In this document: positions 16,332 through 24,294 of the stretch, piece after piece
How positions within the stretch are numbered: the stretch's first letter is position 1
How the letters are laid out: every line of letters starts with the position of its first letter
IMG/VR virus record: IMGVR_UViG_3300032294_002823
DNA length: 64,000 nucleotides
DNA from: a virus
Reading direction: 5' to 3' (one strand)
Position numbers and translations under genes: made by a program
The notes under the pieces: model-generated
Databases searched by the model: none
Seen by the model: only the letters and a program-made list of their open reading frames with translations
Told to the model about the DNA's origin: nothing

Positions 16332-16361
16332 AGTGTAATCTACATCTACGTACCCTGGGGC

Positions 16362-16459
16362 TTGACAAATGAGTCCCAGGGTATTATATTTAAGTATAGT
16401 GAAAAACAACAAAAAAGTTTCAAAGTAGGGCTTGACAAACGAAGGAACTGTGTTAGATT
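16362..16459 (+). promoter_or_regulatory. Two tandem sigma70-type promoters for the tRNA cluster
   Basis: TTGACA(16362)-N17-TATATT; TTGACA(16432)-N16-TAGATT. Confidence 0.7.
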
Positions 16460-16496
16460 ACATATGTGTTCGCTAATTGACAACTACAGTACTTAC

Positions 16497-16568
16497 GCCG
16501 CGTTCGTCTATCGGTTAGGACGCTAGACTTTCACTCTGGTAAGATGGGTTCGATTCCCATACGCGGTA
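16497..16568 (+). tRNA. tRNA-Glu(TTC)
   Basis: Cloverleaf, anticodon arm CTAGA-ctTTCac-TCTGG. Confidence 0.92.
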
Positions 16569-16573
16569 CTTCT

Positions 16574-16745
16574 CGTCAACTTTGTAGGGTGATTTGACGT
16601 TAAATGCAGAACTCTACCGCTATTCATATTCGGCGCAGGAATATGGGCTTGGCAACGTGTCGGATGTTGCAAAAGGTGAGGGGGAAGTAGGCGCGACTAC
16701 TGACCACCTTGGGTAACTAGAAACTACCCGAACATACTCCCCCTC
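16574..16745 (+). ncRNA. Putative structured ncRNA between tRNA-Glu and tRNA-Gln
   Basis: Six hairpins and two candidate pseudoknots; no ORF. Confidence 0.55.
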
Positions 16746-16748
16746 TAC

Positions 16749-16819
16749 TGCCCTCTCGTATAATGGCAATACAGTTGACTTTGGATCAACGAATCGTGGT
16801 TCGATTCCATGGAGGGCAA
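16749..16819 (+). tRNA. tRNA-Gln(TTG)
   Basis: TGCCCTC/GAGGGCA acceptor; GTTGA-ctTTGga-TCAAC. Confidence 0.92.
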
Positions 16820-16858
16820 TGTAGTACCCGTCAATAAAAAACAAACAAAGGAGATAAT

Positions 16859-17029
16859 ATGCGTAATATGATTTTTGCAGTAGCACTTGTTGGTCTTGCC
16901 GCTTGTGGTAGCAAGGAAGAAACCGCAGTTGATACCACAGTTGCCGCCCCTGCTGATACGGCAGCTGCTGTAACGGTTCCTGACAGTGCAGTAACCAGCG
17001 CACCACTTGACACAGTGGTAGCCAAGTAA
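16859..17029 (+). CDS. Small lipoprotein (56 aa)
   Basis: MRNMIFAVALVGLAAC lipobox; AAGGAG SD; not in ORF track. Confidence 0.8.
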   Translation: MRNMIFAVALVGLAACGSKEETAVDTTVAAPADTAAAVTVPDSAVTSAPLDTVVAK

Positions 17030-17032
17030 TAA

Positions 17033-17054
17033 AGTAGGTCCTTCGGGACCTACT
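17033..17054 (+). terminator. UUCG-capped hairpin (terminator or processing signal)
   Basis: AGTAGGTCC-TTCG-GGACCTACT perfect 9-bp stem; no U-tract. Confidence 0.6.
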
Positions 17055-17057
17055 CAC

Positions 17058-18164: not shown

Positions 18165-18172
18165 TGAAGGGC

Positions 18173-18201
18173 TTGACAAATGAAGTACACTGTAGTATAT
18201 T
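18173..18201 (+). promoter_or_regulatory. Sigma70-type promoter
   Basis: GGGC-TTGACA-N17-TATATT. Confidence 0.7.
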
Positions 18202-18242
18202 ACATATGTTAATTGAAAATGAATGAATGGCAGTAATGAAAT

Positions 18243-18531: not shown

Positions 18532-18589
18532 CTTGTAGGACGATGAGCAACGGAAACCAATCAGACCTTAAGTCCACTGGTAATACATT

Positions 18590-18662
18590 CCGCCTGTAGC
18601 TCATCGGTTAGAGTGGCCGTCTTATAAACGGTTGGTAGATGGTTCAATTCCATCCAGGCGGA
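18590..18662 (+). tRNA. tRNA-Ile(TAT)
   Basis: CCGCCTG/CAGGCGG acceptor; GCCGT-ctTATaa-ACGGT. Confidence 0.85.
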
Positions 18663-18686
18663 TTACATTATGGTACGGAGAGATAT

Positions 18687-21148: not shown

Positions 21149-21485
21149 GTTTGTCGTTGCCACAGGTGTATGGATCATTCTCACTCTTGTTGTGTATAAA
21201 CACATAGGATGGGAAAAGGTTCGTGAATGTTATTTGTTATGGACGAAACGAGAATATTGGACCAATTATAACATTGTTGAAGCCTTGAGCTGGTTTGCCA
21301 AGGCTATTATCATTGTTCCTGGATTAATCTTCAATGTTAGTATCTGGTGGTTATATTTCTTCACGCTGTTCACAAGTTTAACCTTAATTTGGGCAAGTAA
21401 TAAAAAACTTCTCCCCACCCTAGTAGGATTCAATACATTATGGGCATGGATTAGTTGTATGGTACTTGCAAAACACATACTATGA
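21132..21485 (+). CDS. Membrane protein
   Basis: Multiple TM segments. Confidence 0.7.
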   Translation: MDSVNKFVVATGVWIILTLVVYKHIGWEKVRECYLLWTKREYWTNYNIVEALSWFAKAIIIVPGLIFNVSIWWLYFFTLFTSLTLIWASNKKLLPTLVGFNTLWAWISCMVLAKHIL

Positions 21486-23032
21486 TTCCTGATAATTATA
21501 AATTTGTTGTTGTAGGCGGCGGGACTGCTGGTTGGTTGTCAGCTCTATTTCTGAAAAAGAATATCCCCAAGGCACACATCACGGTGATTGAAAGTAGTGA
21601 TATCGGTATTCTAGGTGCGGGCGAAGGCACTGTTTGGAATTTCATTGAATTCTTGCAGAGCATTGATATTTCTCCTGGTGATATTGTGTATCATGCCCAA
21701 GGCACATTTAAAAATGGGATTAAGTTCACTAATTGGAACGGCGACGGTGAACATTATTTTCATGGATTTGCCGATCCTAGCGAAGTTACCATTGAACATC
21801 CCAAGATGCCATTCTTTGATTTTTCTTTACCACACTTAGAAGCTCTAGCGGCAGGAAAAAATTTAGATGATGTGAATTTCAGTGCACAAGTTTCTTCTAA
21901 CAATGATGTCAAGTATAAGACAAACGGAAAGAAAACTAGTGATCCCTATGAACATTTCACACAGCTTGGGCATACAGCATTACACTTTGATGCTCGTTTA
22001 TTGGCGCAATATTTAAAGAATGTTGGTGTGTCCCGTGGTATTGAATTGATAGATGCAAAGGTGACATCAGTGGCAGAAGATGTTTCCCATAACATTTCTG
22101 ATATCCAATTAGACAACGGCACAGTACTGCATCCTGATTTCGTGTTCGATTGTTCTGGATTTCATAAATTAATTCTTGGAAAGCATTATCAAGAACAATG
22201 GGAATCATATGAAAACCATCTTCCTGTAAATCGCGCACTTCCATTTTTCTTACCTCGCACGGAAGAAAAAATTCCTCCATACACCGAGGCAATTGCCATG
22301 AAGTATGGCTGGATATGGAAAATCCCTGTGGGTGAACGTTATGGGTGTGGTTATGTGTTTAATGGACGATTAATTACCGATGAACAGGCAAAACAGGAAA
22401 TTGAGGAACTTGTTGGACATGAAATCACTTCACCGAAAACATTCTCCTTCACTCCTGGAGCATTCTATCGTCCTTGGCGACATAATGTTTTGGCGATGGG
22501 ATTGGCAGCAAACTTCATTGAACCTCTGGAAGCCACAAGTATTTGGGTAACAACCATGTCACTTCGTATGTTCGTGAAATATTTTCAAGGATATCTGACG
22601 AAGAATTTTTCACACGTGGATTCATACAACAATGAAGTGCGAAATATTAATCAAGAAATTTGTGCATTCATTTATTTTCATTATCTAACGAAGCGAGATG
22701 ATACAGATTTTTGGAGAAATTTCCGCGTGAATAATACGCCTCCTGAAAAATATCATCTCTTACACACTGAATTAACATCAGGAAGATTTGAACGAAAATA
22801 TTTTGGCGTTTCAAGTTATATGCAGGTGGGTGCGGGCATTAAATATTTTGAACCACTAGAAGCAAATCAAATGTATGAATATCAGCTAGGGATTTTTGGC
22901 GCCGATAAATATAAAAATGATAAGCTATTCAAAAATTTTGAAATGGAGAAGCTCACCACTGAATGTGTTGACCATGCCTTCATTACAGAGTATATCAAGA
23001 AGCGTCACCTTGAGGTGTTAAAAGAATCATGA
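21482..23032 (+). CDS. Tryptophan halogenase-family flavoprotein (PrnA-like)
   Basis: GGGTAGW, GAGEGT, GWIWKIP (WxWxIP), FIEPLEATSI. Confidence 0.9.
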   Translation: MIPDNYKFVVVGGGTAGWLSALFLKKNIPKAHITVIESSDIGILGAGEGTVWNFIEFLQSIDISPGDIVYHAQGTFKNGIKFTNWNGDGEHYFHGFADPSEVTIEHPKMPFFDFSLPHLEALAAGKNLDDVNFSAQVSSNNDVKYKTNGKKTSDPYEHFTQLGHTALHFDARLLAQYLKNVGVSRGIELIDAKVTSVAEDVSHNISDIQLDNGTVLHPDFVFDCSGFHKLILGKHYQEQWESYENHLPVNRALPFFLPRTEEKIPPYTEAIAMKYGWIWKIPVGERYGCGYVFNGRLITDEQAKQEIEELVGHEITSPKTFSFTPGAFYRPWRHNVLAMGLAANFIEPLEATSIWVTTMSLRMFVKYFQGYLTKNFSHVDSYNNEVRNINQEICAFIYFHYLTKRDDTDFWRNFRVNNTPPEKYHLLHTELTSGRFERKYFGVSSYMQVGAGIKYFEPLEANQMYEYQLGIFGADKYKNDKLFKNFEMEKLTTECVDHAFITEYIKKRHLEVLKES

Positions 23033-23625
23033 AAGTAGAACATGTATTCAACAGAAAAATTGTTCGTTTTCAATGTGATGAAGTGGAGTTTTACACCAAT
23101 GAAAATTTTCTTAATAATTTAAATAGATTGTTCAATCACCCATCAATGCGAGACAACGTTTCGAATGAACAGGTGGGCGATGCCCAAACAACAGTAGGAA
23201 AGAATTTTCTACTTCCTTTGAAGTTGCCCGGTGCGGAAAATCTAGAGCGTTGGATTCATGAACGATTAATGGAAGCAGCACCCCATTTCGTAGACTTCAC
23301 ACCCACCAGTATTCAATTTGTTCGCACATGGACAAATAAAATGTTTCGTGGGTGTGAAGGACAGACACACAATCACAAAGGCCCCAATCACGGCGTTGGT
23401 GTGTTTTATGTGAATATTCCAGAGAATGGAAGTGATTTAGTGTTTGTGCGCGATGGTGTGTACATGACAAAGATTTCAGATTATGCAATAGGTGATGTTG
23501 TATTTGCAGGAACGCGAACCGGTGAATTGGTATTACATGATACAGAAATTTCTCATGCTGTATCTGAACATGATAATGATGAACCAAGAATTTGTATCGT
23601 TGTGGAGTTCACATATATTCCATAA
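23029..23625 (+). CDS. 2OG-Fe(II) oxygenase (TIGR02466-like)
   Basis: W-N...HNH...GVFYV...H-V...RI motif pattern. Confidence 0.75.
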   Translation: MKVEHVFNRKIVRFQCDEVEFYTNENFLNNLNRLFNHPSMRDNVSNEQVGDAQTTVGKNFLLPLKLPGAENLERWIHERLMEAAPHFVDFTPTSIQFVRTWTNKMFRGCEGQTHNHKGPNHGVGVFYVNIPENGSDLVFVRDGVYMTKISDYAIGDVVFAGTRTGELVLHDTEISHAVSEHDNDEPRICIVVEFTYIP

Positions 23626-24187: not shown

Positions 24188-24269
24188 GGAAGGTTCGCAT
24201 AATGGTATTGCAGCTGTCTACTAAACAGCCGACCGAAAGGTTATGTGGGTTCGAATCCCTCACCTTCCG
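24188..24269 (+). tRNA. tRNA-Ser(ACT)
   Basis: GGAAGGT/ACCTTCC acceptor with G73; GCTGT-ctACTaa-ACAGC; long variable arm. Confidence 0.85.
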
Positions 24270-24294
24270 CTTTTTTCAATAGTTAGGAGATGTT

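What the first reader, a model, noticed from the sequence alone, without database searches (positions are those of the whole stretch)
16574..16745. Unannotated ~170-nt doubly pseudoknotted RNA between tRNA-Glu and tRNA-Gln, with a pistol-ribozyme-like 5' half
Seen: P1 CGTCAA/TTGACG (16574-16599), whose loop GTAGGG can pair with CTCTAC (16612-17) after a TTAAAT linker; hairpins CATATTC/GAATATG and GCAACGT/ATGTTGC; AAGGTG/CACCTT enclosing GTAG/CTAC, with GAGGGGGA (16678-85) complementary to TCCCCCTC (16738-45); and GGGTA/TACCC. Known: pistol ribozymes have a P1 hairpin, UUAAAU linker, pseudoknot and P3; T4 tRNA clusters encode stable RNAs of unknown function; small ribozymes process some phage tRNAs. 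The pistol catalytic GCG and GU positions do not match cleanly. Inference: a novel structured RNA or ribozyme variant.
Basis: partly seen in the sequence, partly recalled or inferred. Interest (0 to 1): 0.7.

Follow-up and report, generated by a model that had tools for sequence, protein, structure and literature searches.

The report
New pseudoknotted RNA before phage tRNA-Gln
The 179-base gap between tRNA-Glu and tRNA-Gln in this T4-like freshwater phage encodes a real, conserved, heavily pseudoknotted non-coding RNA of a family not in Rfam, always placed directly in front of tRNA-Gln; it is not a pistol ribozyme and its function is unknown.

Summary
Thirteen distinct homologues from uncultured T4-like phage contigs support the helices by compensatory changes. 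The 5' domain is 93% paired, against 29-42% in slid controls. The 3' domain is 88% paired, against 37-52%.

I found two more helices: a second compact H-type pseudoknot in the 5' half (X), and a helix S3 in the 3' half.

The RNA has two modules that recombine independently:
- 5' module: two tandem H-type pseudoknots plus a hairpin.
- 3' module: a three-way junction with a further pseudoknot, a self-complementary 6-nt loop, and an anticodon-loop-like 7-nt loop.

No Rfam family matches, even at E<=10. ARAGORN finds no consistent tRNA, mt-tRNA or tmRNA. Models built from the family do not hit T4 rnaC/rnaD.

Pistol membership fails: there is no P2 and no 2-nt GU junction. HDV-like membership also fails: only the topology matches, there is no G.U at +1, the catalytic C is not fixed, and J3/1 pairs with J4/2.

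In all 13 variants the element ends 3-5 nt before tRNA-Gln(UUG). Most relatives lack it and have Glu and Gln 2-8 nt apart.

Best reading: a new family of stable structured RNA, released by tRNA-processing enzymes. Its trans-acting role is unknown.

The scan also noted this stretch in an overlapping window of the same genome.

The parts
16362..16459 (+). Two sigma-70-like promoters (16362-16390 and 16432-16459), each built on a repeated GGGCTTGACAAA motif, directly upstream of tRNA-Glu.
   Evidence: 11/12 and 10/12 matches to the consensus. No + strand terminator lies between here and tRNA-Gln. The motif is repeated elsewhere in the relative G001.
16497..16569 (+). tRNA-Glu(UUC), the upstream neighbour. 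It lies 4 nt before P1'.
16570..16748 (+). The whole element, a 179-nt spacer. The 5' module is 16570-16672 and the 3' module is 16673-16748.
   Evidence: CM R2 scores 127.6 bits and CM R1 scores 71.5 bits.
16574..16599 (+). P1' hairpin, CGTCAA/TTGACG (16574-79 with 16594-99).
   Evidence: helix 1: 94% paired. The closing pair is seen as A-U, G-C and G.U.
16584..16617 (+). PK1, the first H-type pseudoknot. P1' loop GTAGGG (16584-89) pairs with CTCTAC (16612-17). They are joined by the conserved A-rich linker TTAAA..GAA (16600-11).
   Evidence: helix 2: 5 of 6 pairs show changes on both sides, for example AUAGAG/CUCUAU in L256 and UUGAAU/AUUCAA in L257.
16618..16645 (+). Second H-type pseudoknot. 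X helix CGCT (16618-21) pairs with GGCG (16632-35), the first four loop bases of hairpin Ha CATATTC/GAATATG (16625-31 with 16639-45).
   Evidence: X is seen as CGUC/GACG, CGCC/GGCG, CACC/GGUG and CCGU/ACGG. Ha has 6 of 7 pairs changed on both sides.
16652..16670 (+). Hairpin Hb, GCAACGT/ATGTTGC.
   Evidence: helix 5: 97.5% paired, with 5 of 7 pairs changed on both sides.
16673..16710 (+). S1, the third pseudoknot. AAGGTG (16673-78) pairs with CACCTT (16705-10).
   Evidence: helix 1: four invariant pairs and two covarying pairs (G-C/U-A; U-A/A-U in L256). This is the weakest helix, with mismatches in 5 of 13 variants.
16679..16744 (+). S2, the closing helix of the 3' module. AGGGGGA (16679-85) pairs with TCCCCCT (16738-44). 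In this window S3 is reduced to a single pair, G16702-C16737.
   Evidence: helices 2 and 4. S3 is 3-4 bp in 11 of 13 variants, and all 3 of its pairs covary.
16686..16701 (+). Hairpin Hc, AGTAG/CTACT, with the 6-nt loop GCGCGA (16691-96). The loop core is self-complementary: CGCG here, and CUAG (UCUAGA) in 11 of 13 variants.
   Evidence: helix 3. In the window and in L016 the stem sits one column out of register in the alignment, so the tool undercounts these two.
16711..16729 (+). Hairpin Hd, GGGTA/TACCC. The conserved loop is N-[Y-U-R-G-A-A-M]-N, here ACTAGAAAC (16716-24).
   Evidence: helix 5: 94% paired. The sixth pair covaries between U-A and C-G.
16745..16819 (+). A 4-nt tail (CTAC) followed by tRNA-Gln(UUG) 16749-16819. 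The RNase P site of the tRNA would define the 3' end of the element.
   Evidence: the same abutment is seen in all 13 variants. The RNase P step is inferred, not shown.

Best explanation
The spacer is the gene for a previously undescribed family of structured non-coding RNA, about 175-185 nt long. It is carried in the tRNA array of one clade of uncultured T4-like phages.

Transcription (inferred): the RNA is made on the + strand together with tRNA-Glu and tRNA-Gln, from the two sigma-70-type promoters just upstream.

Fold (shown by covariation): there are two modules.
- 5' module: two consecutive H-type pseudoknots, P1'/PK1 with an A-rich crossing strand, then X/Ha. A hairpin, Hb, follows.
- 3' module: a three-way junction (S2, Hc, S3-Hd). 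Its internal loop pairs back to the AAGG just 5' of S2, forming S1.

Release (inferred): RNase P cutting at the 5' end of tRNA-Gln makes the 3' end of the RNA. 3' processing of the upstream tRNA, or an endonuclease, makes its 5' end. This mirrors how the stable species 1 and 2 RNAs sit in the T4 tRNA cluster.

Function (inferred): the released RNA most likely acts in trans during infection as a stable scaffold or decoy for a protein or RNA partner, possibly one that handles tRNA. Three features fit this: the 7-bp closing helix, the 7-nt loop with the anticodon-loop pattern Y-U-NNN-R-N, and a self-complementary loop that could mediate dimerisation.

The confidence given (0.55) is for the whole statement. 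That the spacer is a real conserved structured RNA of a new family I put at about 0.95, excision by the tRNA-processing enzymes at about 0.7, and a trans-acting role at about 0.4.
For: 1. Real structure. The 5' module is 92.9% paired against 29-42% for slid controls. Twenty pairs change on both sides, and 0 of 500 shuffles reach this. The 3' module is 87.6% paired against 37-52%, with 15 such pairs.
2. RNA of the + strand. G.U outnumbers A.C 35 to 19. The element shares its strand with all 26 tRNAs. Promoters lie at 16362-90 and 16432-59, with no terminator before tRNA-Gln.
3. Not any known family. No Rfam match at gathering score or at E<=10. ARAGORN tRNA, mt-tRNA and tmRNA modes give nothing consistent. 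Models R1 and R2 do not hit T4 rnaC/rnaD. No cultured phage matches by blastn.
4. Constant abutment. All 13 variants end 3-5 nt before tRNA-Gln(UUG). The upstream neighbour varies: tRNA-Glu at 4-6 nt, 70 nt or about 250 nt, or tRNA-Met at 115 nt. Three variants were found with patterns that did not use the tRNA.
5. T4-like context. A T4 RNase H homologue lies two genes upstream. T4 itself has stable RNAs of unknown role abutting a tRNA.
6. Not coding. Variants are 178-188 nt long, with indels that are not multiples of three, and changes sit in paired positions.
Against: - Expression, the RNA ends and its stability are therefore all inferred.
- Most relatives lack the element and have Glu and Gln 2-8 nt apart. 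A 99%-complete relative has no copy anywhere. Whatever it does is therefore dispensable.
- The strict link to tRNA-Gln fits a cis role in tRNA-Gln maturation as well as it fits a hitch-hiking trans-acting RNA.
- S1 rests on only two covarying pairs.
- The self-complementary loop rests on essentially one evolutionary event.
- Nothing identifies a partner.
Confidence: 0.55

Rival explanations
1. A cis-acting leader of tRNA-Gln. The structured RNA stays attached to pre-tRNA-Gln and controls, times or safeguards its maturation. It might do this by presenting or masking the RNase P site 3-5 nt away, or by sensing a metabolite or a tRNA. The pseudoknotted 5' module would act as the aptamer.
For: The downstream partner is tRNA-Gln in 13 of 13 variants with a constant 3-5 nt gap. 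This holds across three diverged tRNA-Gln types and at least four different upstream contexts. The junction nucleotides are highly conserved (UUAAA, GAA, CUU, AAGG, CCUUGG), as in ligand pockets. The AAGG motif has alternative partners, CCUU and the CUU of the P1' loop.
Against: Relatives express tRNA-Gln without it, with Glu and Gln 2-8 nt apart. The same 3' module occurs with three different tRNA-Gln acceptor stems, so there is no covariation with the tRNA. No glutamine, preQ1 or other riboswitch model matches. A 4-nt gap makes genetic linkage to the tRNA almost unbreakable by chance alone.
Confidence: 0.2
2. The 3' module is an HDV-like self-cleaving ribozyme, a nested double pseudoknot. 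It would cut just 5' of AAGG (about 16672/16673), releasing the 5' module with a cyclic phosphate.
For: The strand order is the same as in HDV ribozymes: P1-5', P2-5', P3 hairpin, P1-3', P4 hairpin, P2-3'. The strand continuity would give two stacks, S1-Hd and S2-Hc, like P1-P1.1-P4 and P2-P3 (PMC13635239). The motif C-G-A-A-U/C follows Hd in most variants, resembling the C75-G-A-A-U of J4/2 (the HDV motif is from my own knowledge). HDV-like theta ribozymes are known beside phage tRNAs (PMC10879173).
Against: - The +1 pair would be A-U, not the G.U wobble, and P1 would be 4-6 bp, not 7.
- The candidate catalytic C (column 63) is U in 4 of 13 variants, and C-to-U kills HDV-like ribozymes.
- J3/1 is 3-8 nt and pairs with the 3' part of J4/2 (S3; all 3 pairs covary). 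This is foreign to the HDV fold.
- P3 would be 4-5 bp.
- No HDV, CPEB3 or related model matches at E<=10.
Confidence: 0.07
3. The 5' module is a pistol-type (or pseudoknotted hammerhead-type) self-cleaving ribozyme variant.
For: P1' is a hairpin whose loop forms a 6-bp pseudoknot downstream of a GUUAAA linker, as in pistol (PMC4604425). Pistol RNAs are phage-associated.
Against: - No P2 exists. No segment of the linker is consistently complementary to the sequence after hairpin Ha (layout).
- There is no 2-nt GU junction.
- The pseudoknot strand is followed at once by helix X, a second pseudoknot absent from pistol.
- The Rfam pistol and hammerhead models do not match at E<=10.
- No conserved CUGANGA/GAAA core is present.
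Confidence: 0.03
4. A decayed remnant of one or two tRNA genes, or a selfish insertion, with no present function. On this view the helices are leftovers.
For: The element shows a presence/absence polymorphism at the Glu|Gln junction. Its length is about two tRNAs. The 3' module has a 7-bp closing helix and an anticodon-like loop.
Against: Decay would not produce 35 base pairs with compensatory double changes, or invariant junction motifs kept across lineages whose 5' modules are only 34-60% identical. No T-loop is present and no tRNA model hits. There are no terminal repeats and no extra copies per genome.
Confidence: 0.03

Closest known systems
Phage T4 stable RNAs species 1 (rnaC) and species 2 (rnaD)
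   Same: Both are non-tRNA stable RNA genes inside the tRNA cluster of a T4-type phage. Both abut a tRNA gene by 1-6 nt on the same strand. Both have unknown function and are dispensable.
   Different: There is no sequence or structure homology; R1 and R2 find nothing there. T4 rnaC carries a tRNA-like T-arm sequence, which this RNA lacks. The T4 RNAs follow tRNA-Arg at the end of the cluster, whereas this one always precedes tRNA-Gln. No pseudoknots are described for the T4 RNAs (from my own knowledge).
ROOL and GOLLD ornate RNAs
   Same: Both are phage or prophage RNAs 'often near tRNA islands', with multiple pseudoknots, unknown function and self-interacting kissing loops (bioRxiv 10.1101/2024.12.08.627333).
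   Different: ROOL and GOLLD are far larger; many GOLLD members exceed 800 nt, and ROOL is about 580 nt (from my own knowledge). They are in Rfam, and no Rfam family matches here. Multimerisation of the present RNA is only hinted at by a self-complementary CUAG/CGCG loop.
Pistol ribozyme (RF02679)
   Same: Both have a P1 hairpin with a loop-to-downstream pseudoknot after a GUUAAA-type linker.
   Different: There is no P2, no GU cleavage junction and no model match. The region is followed by a second pseudoknot instead of GCG-P3.
HDV-like / theta ribozymes
   Same: The 3' module has the nested double-pseudoknot strand order and a CGAAU-like motif after the last hairpin. Both lie next to a phage tRNA.
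   Different: It sits upstream of a tRNA rather than immediately downstream. There is no G.U at +1, the C is not fixed, an extra helix S3 is present, the junctions are longer, and no model matches.
Functional tRNA-operon spacers in E. coli (3'ETS-leuZ and the metZWV spacer acting as sRNA sponges; from my own knowledge, not checked here)
   Same: Both are RNAs excised from a tRNA precursor by the tRNA-processing machinery that then act in trans.
   Different: The E. coli spacers are short and largely unstructured and work by base-pairing to sRNAs. This RNA is long and dominated by tertiary structure.

Membership tests
Pistol ribozyme (RF02679) | A P1 hairpin whose loop forms a pseudoknot with a downstream junction. 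| tested here: met
   P1' and PK1 both covary (helices 1 and 2).
Pistol ribozyme (RF02679) | [quoted passage not shown] | tested here: not met
   No conserved complement between linker 16600-11 and the sequence after Ha (16646-51) across the variants (layout). Helix X starts directly after the pseudoknot strand.
Pistol ribozyme (RF02679) | A match to the family covariance model. | tested here: not met
   No match at E<=10 in 801-nt and 187-nt searches.
Pistol ribozyme (RF02679) | Site-specific self-cleavage. | not testable with these tools
   This needs an in vitro assay.
HDV-like ribozymes (RF00094, RF00622 and relatives; theta ribozymes) | Nested double pseudoknot with two coaxial stacks, P1-P1.1-P4 and P2-P3. 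| tested here: inconclusive
   The strand order and zero-nt junctions fit (S1-Hd, S2-Hc). P1.1 cannot be shown, S1 is weakly supported, and the extra helix S3 does not belong to the fold.
HDV-like ribozymes (RF00094, RF00622 and relatives; theta ribozymes) | An invariant catalytic cytosine at the first position of J4/2 (PMC10879173, PMC13635239). | tested here: not met
   Column 63 of A9 is C in 9 and U in 4 of 13 variants. The next base is G, A or C.
HDV-like ribozymes (RF00094, RF00622 and relatives; theta ribozymes) | A G1.U37 wobble at the cleavage site, at the base of a 7-bp P1 (from my own knowledge; Chen et al. 2009, cited in PMC13635239). | tested here: not met
   The first S1 pair is an invariant A-U, and S1 has 4-6 pairs.
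HDV-like ribozymes (RF00094, RF00622 and relatives; theta ribozymes) | A match to a family covariance model. | tested here: not met
tRNA / tmRNA / tRNA-like RNAs (RF00005, RF00023, YrlA) | A cloverleaf or tRNA-like domain with a T-arm; for tmRNA, also a tag reading frame. | tested here: not met
   ARAGORN -t, -mt and -m give no consistent call across the variants. No Rfam match. No GUUCRA T-loop. No reading frame is conserved between variants.
T4 species 1/2 stable RNAs | Homology to T4 rnaC or rnaD. | tested here: not met
   R1 and R2 run with filters off on the T4 tRNA region give no hit on rnaC or rnaD.
T4 species 1/2 stable RNAs | A non-tRNA RNA gene abutting a tRNA within the tRNA cluster of a T4-type phage. 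| tested here: met
ROOL / GOLLD | A match to the family models; size of 500-800 nt or more. | tested here: not met
   No Rfam match. The element is 178-188 nt.
Glutamine riboswitches (glnA RNA, Downstream-peptide) | A match to the family models. | tested here: not met
   The GGAAGUAGG string in the window is not conserved in the other variants.

The most novel reading that the evidence does not exclude
The element is a new class of functional RNA machine coupled to tRNA-Gln. One form of this would be a self-cleaving ribozyme with an HDV-like topology but a different active site. Another would be a ligand- or tRNA-sensing device that gates RNase P access to tRNA-Gln. In either case the two recombining modules would act as sensor and effector. 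A milder version is an RNA-only homodimer, formed through the self-complementary CUAG/CGCG loop, that sequesters a host factor acting on tRNA.
Probability: 0.12. Interest if true: 0.85.

Novelty: new variant of a known kind. Interest (0 to 1): 0.55.

Why it matters
Phage tRNA islands repeatedly harbour structured RNAs whose roles are still unknown, including T4 species 1 and 2 RNAs, ROOL and GOLLD.

This element adds a compact member of that kind, about 180 nt, with three covariation-supported pseudoknots. Three properties make it experimentally tractable:
- It is small enough for crystallography, NMR or chemical probing.
- It is modular; the two halves recombine freely between lineages.
- It has natural knock-outs, since close relatives lack it with an otherwise syntenic tRNA array.

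If it proves catalytic, ligand-binding, or a decoy for a tRNA-directed host factor, it would give a handle on why phages embed non-tRNA RNAs in tRNA operons.

Its known range is narrow: one clade of uncultured phages from metagenome contigs. This limits its general importance for now.

Tried and rejected
- **Rfam.** Searched at gathering score and at E<=10 on 64 kb, 801 nt and 187 nt. Only tRNAs and noise appeared.
- **blastn against GenBank phages**. Only the tRNA-Glu matched.
- **Exact 34-mer of the window's 3' module in IMG/VR**. Nothing found; that module type is rare.
- **Loose 5' pattern**.
- **The same 5' pattern in genomes and metagenomes**. It picked up a Rothia gene end plus terminator (...AAC TTC CGC TAA + hairpin) and a phage RBS hairpin. 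Both are chance matches, and the Rothia site has no Rfam match.
- **tmRNA-like reading**, a lead from earlier scan notes. ARAGORN -m was negative and no conserved tag frame exists.
- **T-armless tRNA reading.** ARAGORN -mt gave inconsistent calls, mostly on the wrong strand.
- **Homology to T4 rnaC/rnaD**. None.
- **A copy elsewhere in relatives that lack the insert.** The only weak hit (18.7 bits) lies inside a lysozyme-like ORF.
- **Pairing of the 3' tail with the tRNA-Gln trailer (CUAC/GUAG).** Not kept in L019 or L186.
- **Pairing of S2 with the tRNA-Gln acceptor strands.** The same 3' module occurs with three acceptor types, so there is no covariation.
- **Pairing of the Hc loop with the Ha loop tail.** No covariation; window and L007 share the 5' module but differ in the Hc loop.
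- **Small ORF 16594-16716 and minus-strand ORF 16620-17057**. Rejected: the second overlaps tRNA-Gln, and the variants differ by non-triplet indels.

Full report
**What is there.** The window carries 26 tRNA genes on the + strand between 16497 and 25770. The finding is the 179-nt spacer 16570-16748, between tRNA-Glu(UUC) 16497-16569 and tRNA-Gln(UUG) 16749-16819.

Folding the single sequence gives only a modest signal. The + strand has z = -2.15, with 7 of 200 shuffles folding as well. The minus strand has z = -1.03. The case therefore rests on comparison with homologues.

**Known families.** No Rfam family other than tRNA matches the spacer. This held at the gathering score on the whole window, at E<=10 on 801 nt, and at E<=10 on the 187 nt alone. 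Pistol, hammerhead, HDV, CPEB3, tmRNA, Y-RNA-like, riboswitch, ROOL and GOLLD models are all silent. blastn against 50,697 GenBank phage records matches only the tRNA-Glu.

**Homologues.**
- The nearest held record, G001, is 96% identical over 801 nt.
- Loci fetched through the upstream DUF6433 protein show a syntenic tRNA array.
- In about 18 of those loci Glu and Gln are 2-8 nt apart. Eight loci, comprising three sequence variants, carry the 179-186-nt insert.
- Pattern scans of IMG/VR, JGI/ENA metagenomes and GTDB genomes were filtered by hand and with covariance models (filtered).
- This raised the set to 13 distinct variants, all on uncultured phage contigs.
- A T4 RNase H homologue two genes upstream marks these as T4-like phages.
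- There is one copy per contig.
- A 99%-complete 177.9-kb relative without the insert has no copy elsewhere. Its single weak hit lies inside a lysozyme-like ORF.

**Structure of the 5' module (16570-16672).** On the model-based alignment A10, 92.9% of cells are paired, against 29-42% when partners are slid by 1-3 columns. Twenty of 30 pairs show changes on both sides, and no shuffle out of 500 reaches any of the measures.

The helices are:
- P1' (16574-79/16594-99).
- PK1, in which the P1' loop 16584-89 pairs with 16612-17. Five of its 6 pairs covary. Two examples with different sequences are AUAGAG/CUCUAU and UUGAAU/AUUCAA.
The four bases right after PK1 (16618-21) pair with the first four loop bases (16632-35) of hairpin Ha (16625-31/16639-45). 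X is seen as CGCU/GGCG, CGUC/GACG, CGCC/GGCG, CACC/GGUG and CCGU/ACGG.
- Hairpin Hb (16652-58/16664-70).

The loop lengths fit two classical H-type pseudoknots stacked end to end. These are 1-3 nt across the 7-bp Ha and 3-5 nt across the 4-bp X, with a conserved A-rich 12-13-nt strand (UUAAA...GAA) across P1'.

A caveat applies. The two most diverged sequences, L016 and L162, are partly misaligned by the model. My hand alignment from segment lengths pairs them better, but it was guided by the structure.

**Structure of the 3' module (16673-16748).** On A9, 87.6% of cells are paired, against 37-52% slid, and 15 of 26 pairs change on both sides.

The helices are:
- S2 (16679-85/16738-44).
- Hc (16686-90/16697-16701).
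- Hd (16711-15/16725-29), with a covarying sixth pair.
It joins the bases after Hc to the bases just before S2's 3' strand. All three pairs covary. It is 3-4 bp in 11 variants but only one pair in the window and in L016.
- S1, AAGGUK with MNCCUU (16673-78/16705-10). It closes a pseudoknot from the 5' flank of S2 into the internal loop between S3 and Hd. S1 has four invariant pairs and two covarying ones. The newly found L256, AAGGAU/AUCCUU, repairs the U.U mismatch of its relatives. S1 remains the least secure helix.

Two loops are conserved:
- The Hc loop has a self-complementary core, CUAG (UCUAGA) in 11 variants and CGCG in 2.
- The Hd loop reads Y-U-R-G-A-A-M within a covarying closing pair. 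This is the Y-U-NNN-R-N pattern of an anticodon loop, and it also contains GAA.

**Strand and expression.** G.U pairs exceed A.C pairs 35 to 19. Two sigma-70-like promoters lie at 16362-90 and 16432-59, and no + strand terminator precedes tRNA-Gln. Co-transcription with the two tRNAs is therefore the natural reading. No transcript data could be obtained.

**Context.** In all 13 variants the element ends 3-5 nt before tRNA-Gln(UUG). The tRNA itself falls into three diverged types, beginning UGCCCUC or UGCCCAC, UGGCCCA, and UGGCCUC. The upstream side differs between variants: tRNA-Glu at 4-6 nt, 70 nt or about 250 nt, or tRNA-Met at 115 nt. The variants found through the Hd-loop pattern, which uses neither the tRNA nor the 5' module, obey the same rule.

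**Modularity.** The two halves have different histories:

| Pair | 5' module identity | 3' module identity |
|---|---|---|
| window vs L007 | 99% | 60% |
| L007 vs L162 | 42% | 91% |
| window vs L213 | 95% | 55% |
| L213 vs L176 | 87% | 92% |

The window and L007 also have identical flanks. The breakpoints lie at the conserved AAAGG and at the end of S2.

**What it is not.**
- **Pistol.** The family is defined by P1, P2, P3, a pseudoknot between the P1 loop and the P2/P3 left-shoulder junction, and a strictly 2-nt GU junction on the right (PMC4604425). Here only P1 and the pseudoknot exist.
- **HDV-like.** The strand order and the two possible stacks resemble the fold described in PMC13635239, and C-G-A-A-U follows Hd in most variants. 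Against that, the would-be +1 pair is A-U, S1 is 4-6 bp, and the candidate catalytic C is U in 4 of 13 variants, although C-to-U inactivates these ribozymes. J3/1 pairs with J4/2 as S3, and no model matches.
- **tRNA, T-armless tRNA or tmRNA.** ARAGORN gives nothing consistent, and no tag frame is conserved.
- **T4 species 1/2 RNAs.** They occupy an analogous position but show no homology.

**Most likely mechanism.**
- *Shown:* a conserved, strand-specific, two-module RNA fold with three pseudoknots, fixed in front of tRNA-Gln.
- *Inferred:* it is co-transcribed with the tRNAs, and its 3' end is made by RNase P cutting at tRNA-Gln +1. Its 5' end is made by trimming behind the upstream tRNA or by an endonuclease. 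It then persists as a stable RNA acting in trans.
- *Speculative:* partial tRNA mimicry (a 7-bp helix plus an anticodon-like loop) and dimerisation through the self-complementary loop.

The main rival is a cis role in tRNA-Gln maturation. Ribozyme readings are possible but each fails defining features.

**Verdict.** This is a genuine new family of structured phage RNA. It belongs to the known kind 'non-tRNA RNAs embedded in phage tRNA islands'. Its function is unknown, its phylogenetic range is narrow, and it is good material for experiments.

Noticed in passing
window 16340-16470, and L002-L006 in G001: The motif GGGCTTGACAAA, carrying the -35 box of a sigma-70-like promoter, occurs twice upstream of tRNA-Glu. 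It recurs at several other places in the related contig G001. It looks like a family of repeated early promoters.
   Followed up: partly
Its fold is no better than shuffles (z = 0.22). The spacer is 131 nt in the window and L007, 80 nt in L019, and 4-9 nt in most relatives.
   Followed up: partly
window 18165-18242: A spacer of 78-87 nt between tRNA-Leu(UAG) and tRNA-Leu(UAA) recurs in the window, L011 and L016 but is 2-3 nt in other relatives. It could be another small RNA or a decayed tRNA.
   Followed up: no
window 18589-18663 and 24188-24270: Two tRNAs have unusual anticodons: tRNA-Ile(UAU) and tRNA-Ser(ACU). Some relatives carry Ser(GCU) at the same array position (L012 and L023).
   Followed up: no
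window 21455-23625: A tryptophan-halogenase-family gene (E = 9e-101) is followed by a 2OG-Fe(II) oxygenase gene. Both sit inside the tRNA region.
   Followed up: no
window 16859-17029: A 56-codon ORF with a good RBS lies right after tRNA-Gln. Its N-terminus looks like a lipoprotein signal. A hairpin follows at 17032-17055, before tRNA-Ala.
   Followed up: no
L242:3554-3700 (Rothia mucilaginosa) and about 25 oral-metagenome contigs: The 5' search pattern also matches the end of a conserved Rothia gene plus its terminator hairpin. This is a chance resemblance, and it shows that the CGUCA..GACGUUAAA string alone is not diagnostic.
   Followed up: yes
window 16820-16835 compared with 16570-16580: CCGTCAA after tRNA-Gln repeats the CGTCAA that starts the element. 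This short direct repeat flanks the unit of element plus tRNA-Gln. I did not check it in the other variants beyond seeing that their trailers differ.
   Followed up: partly
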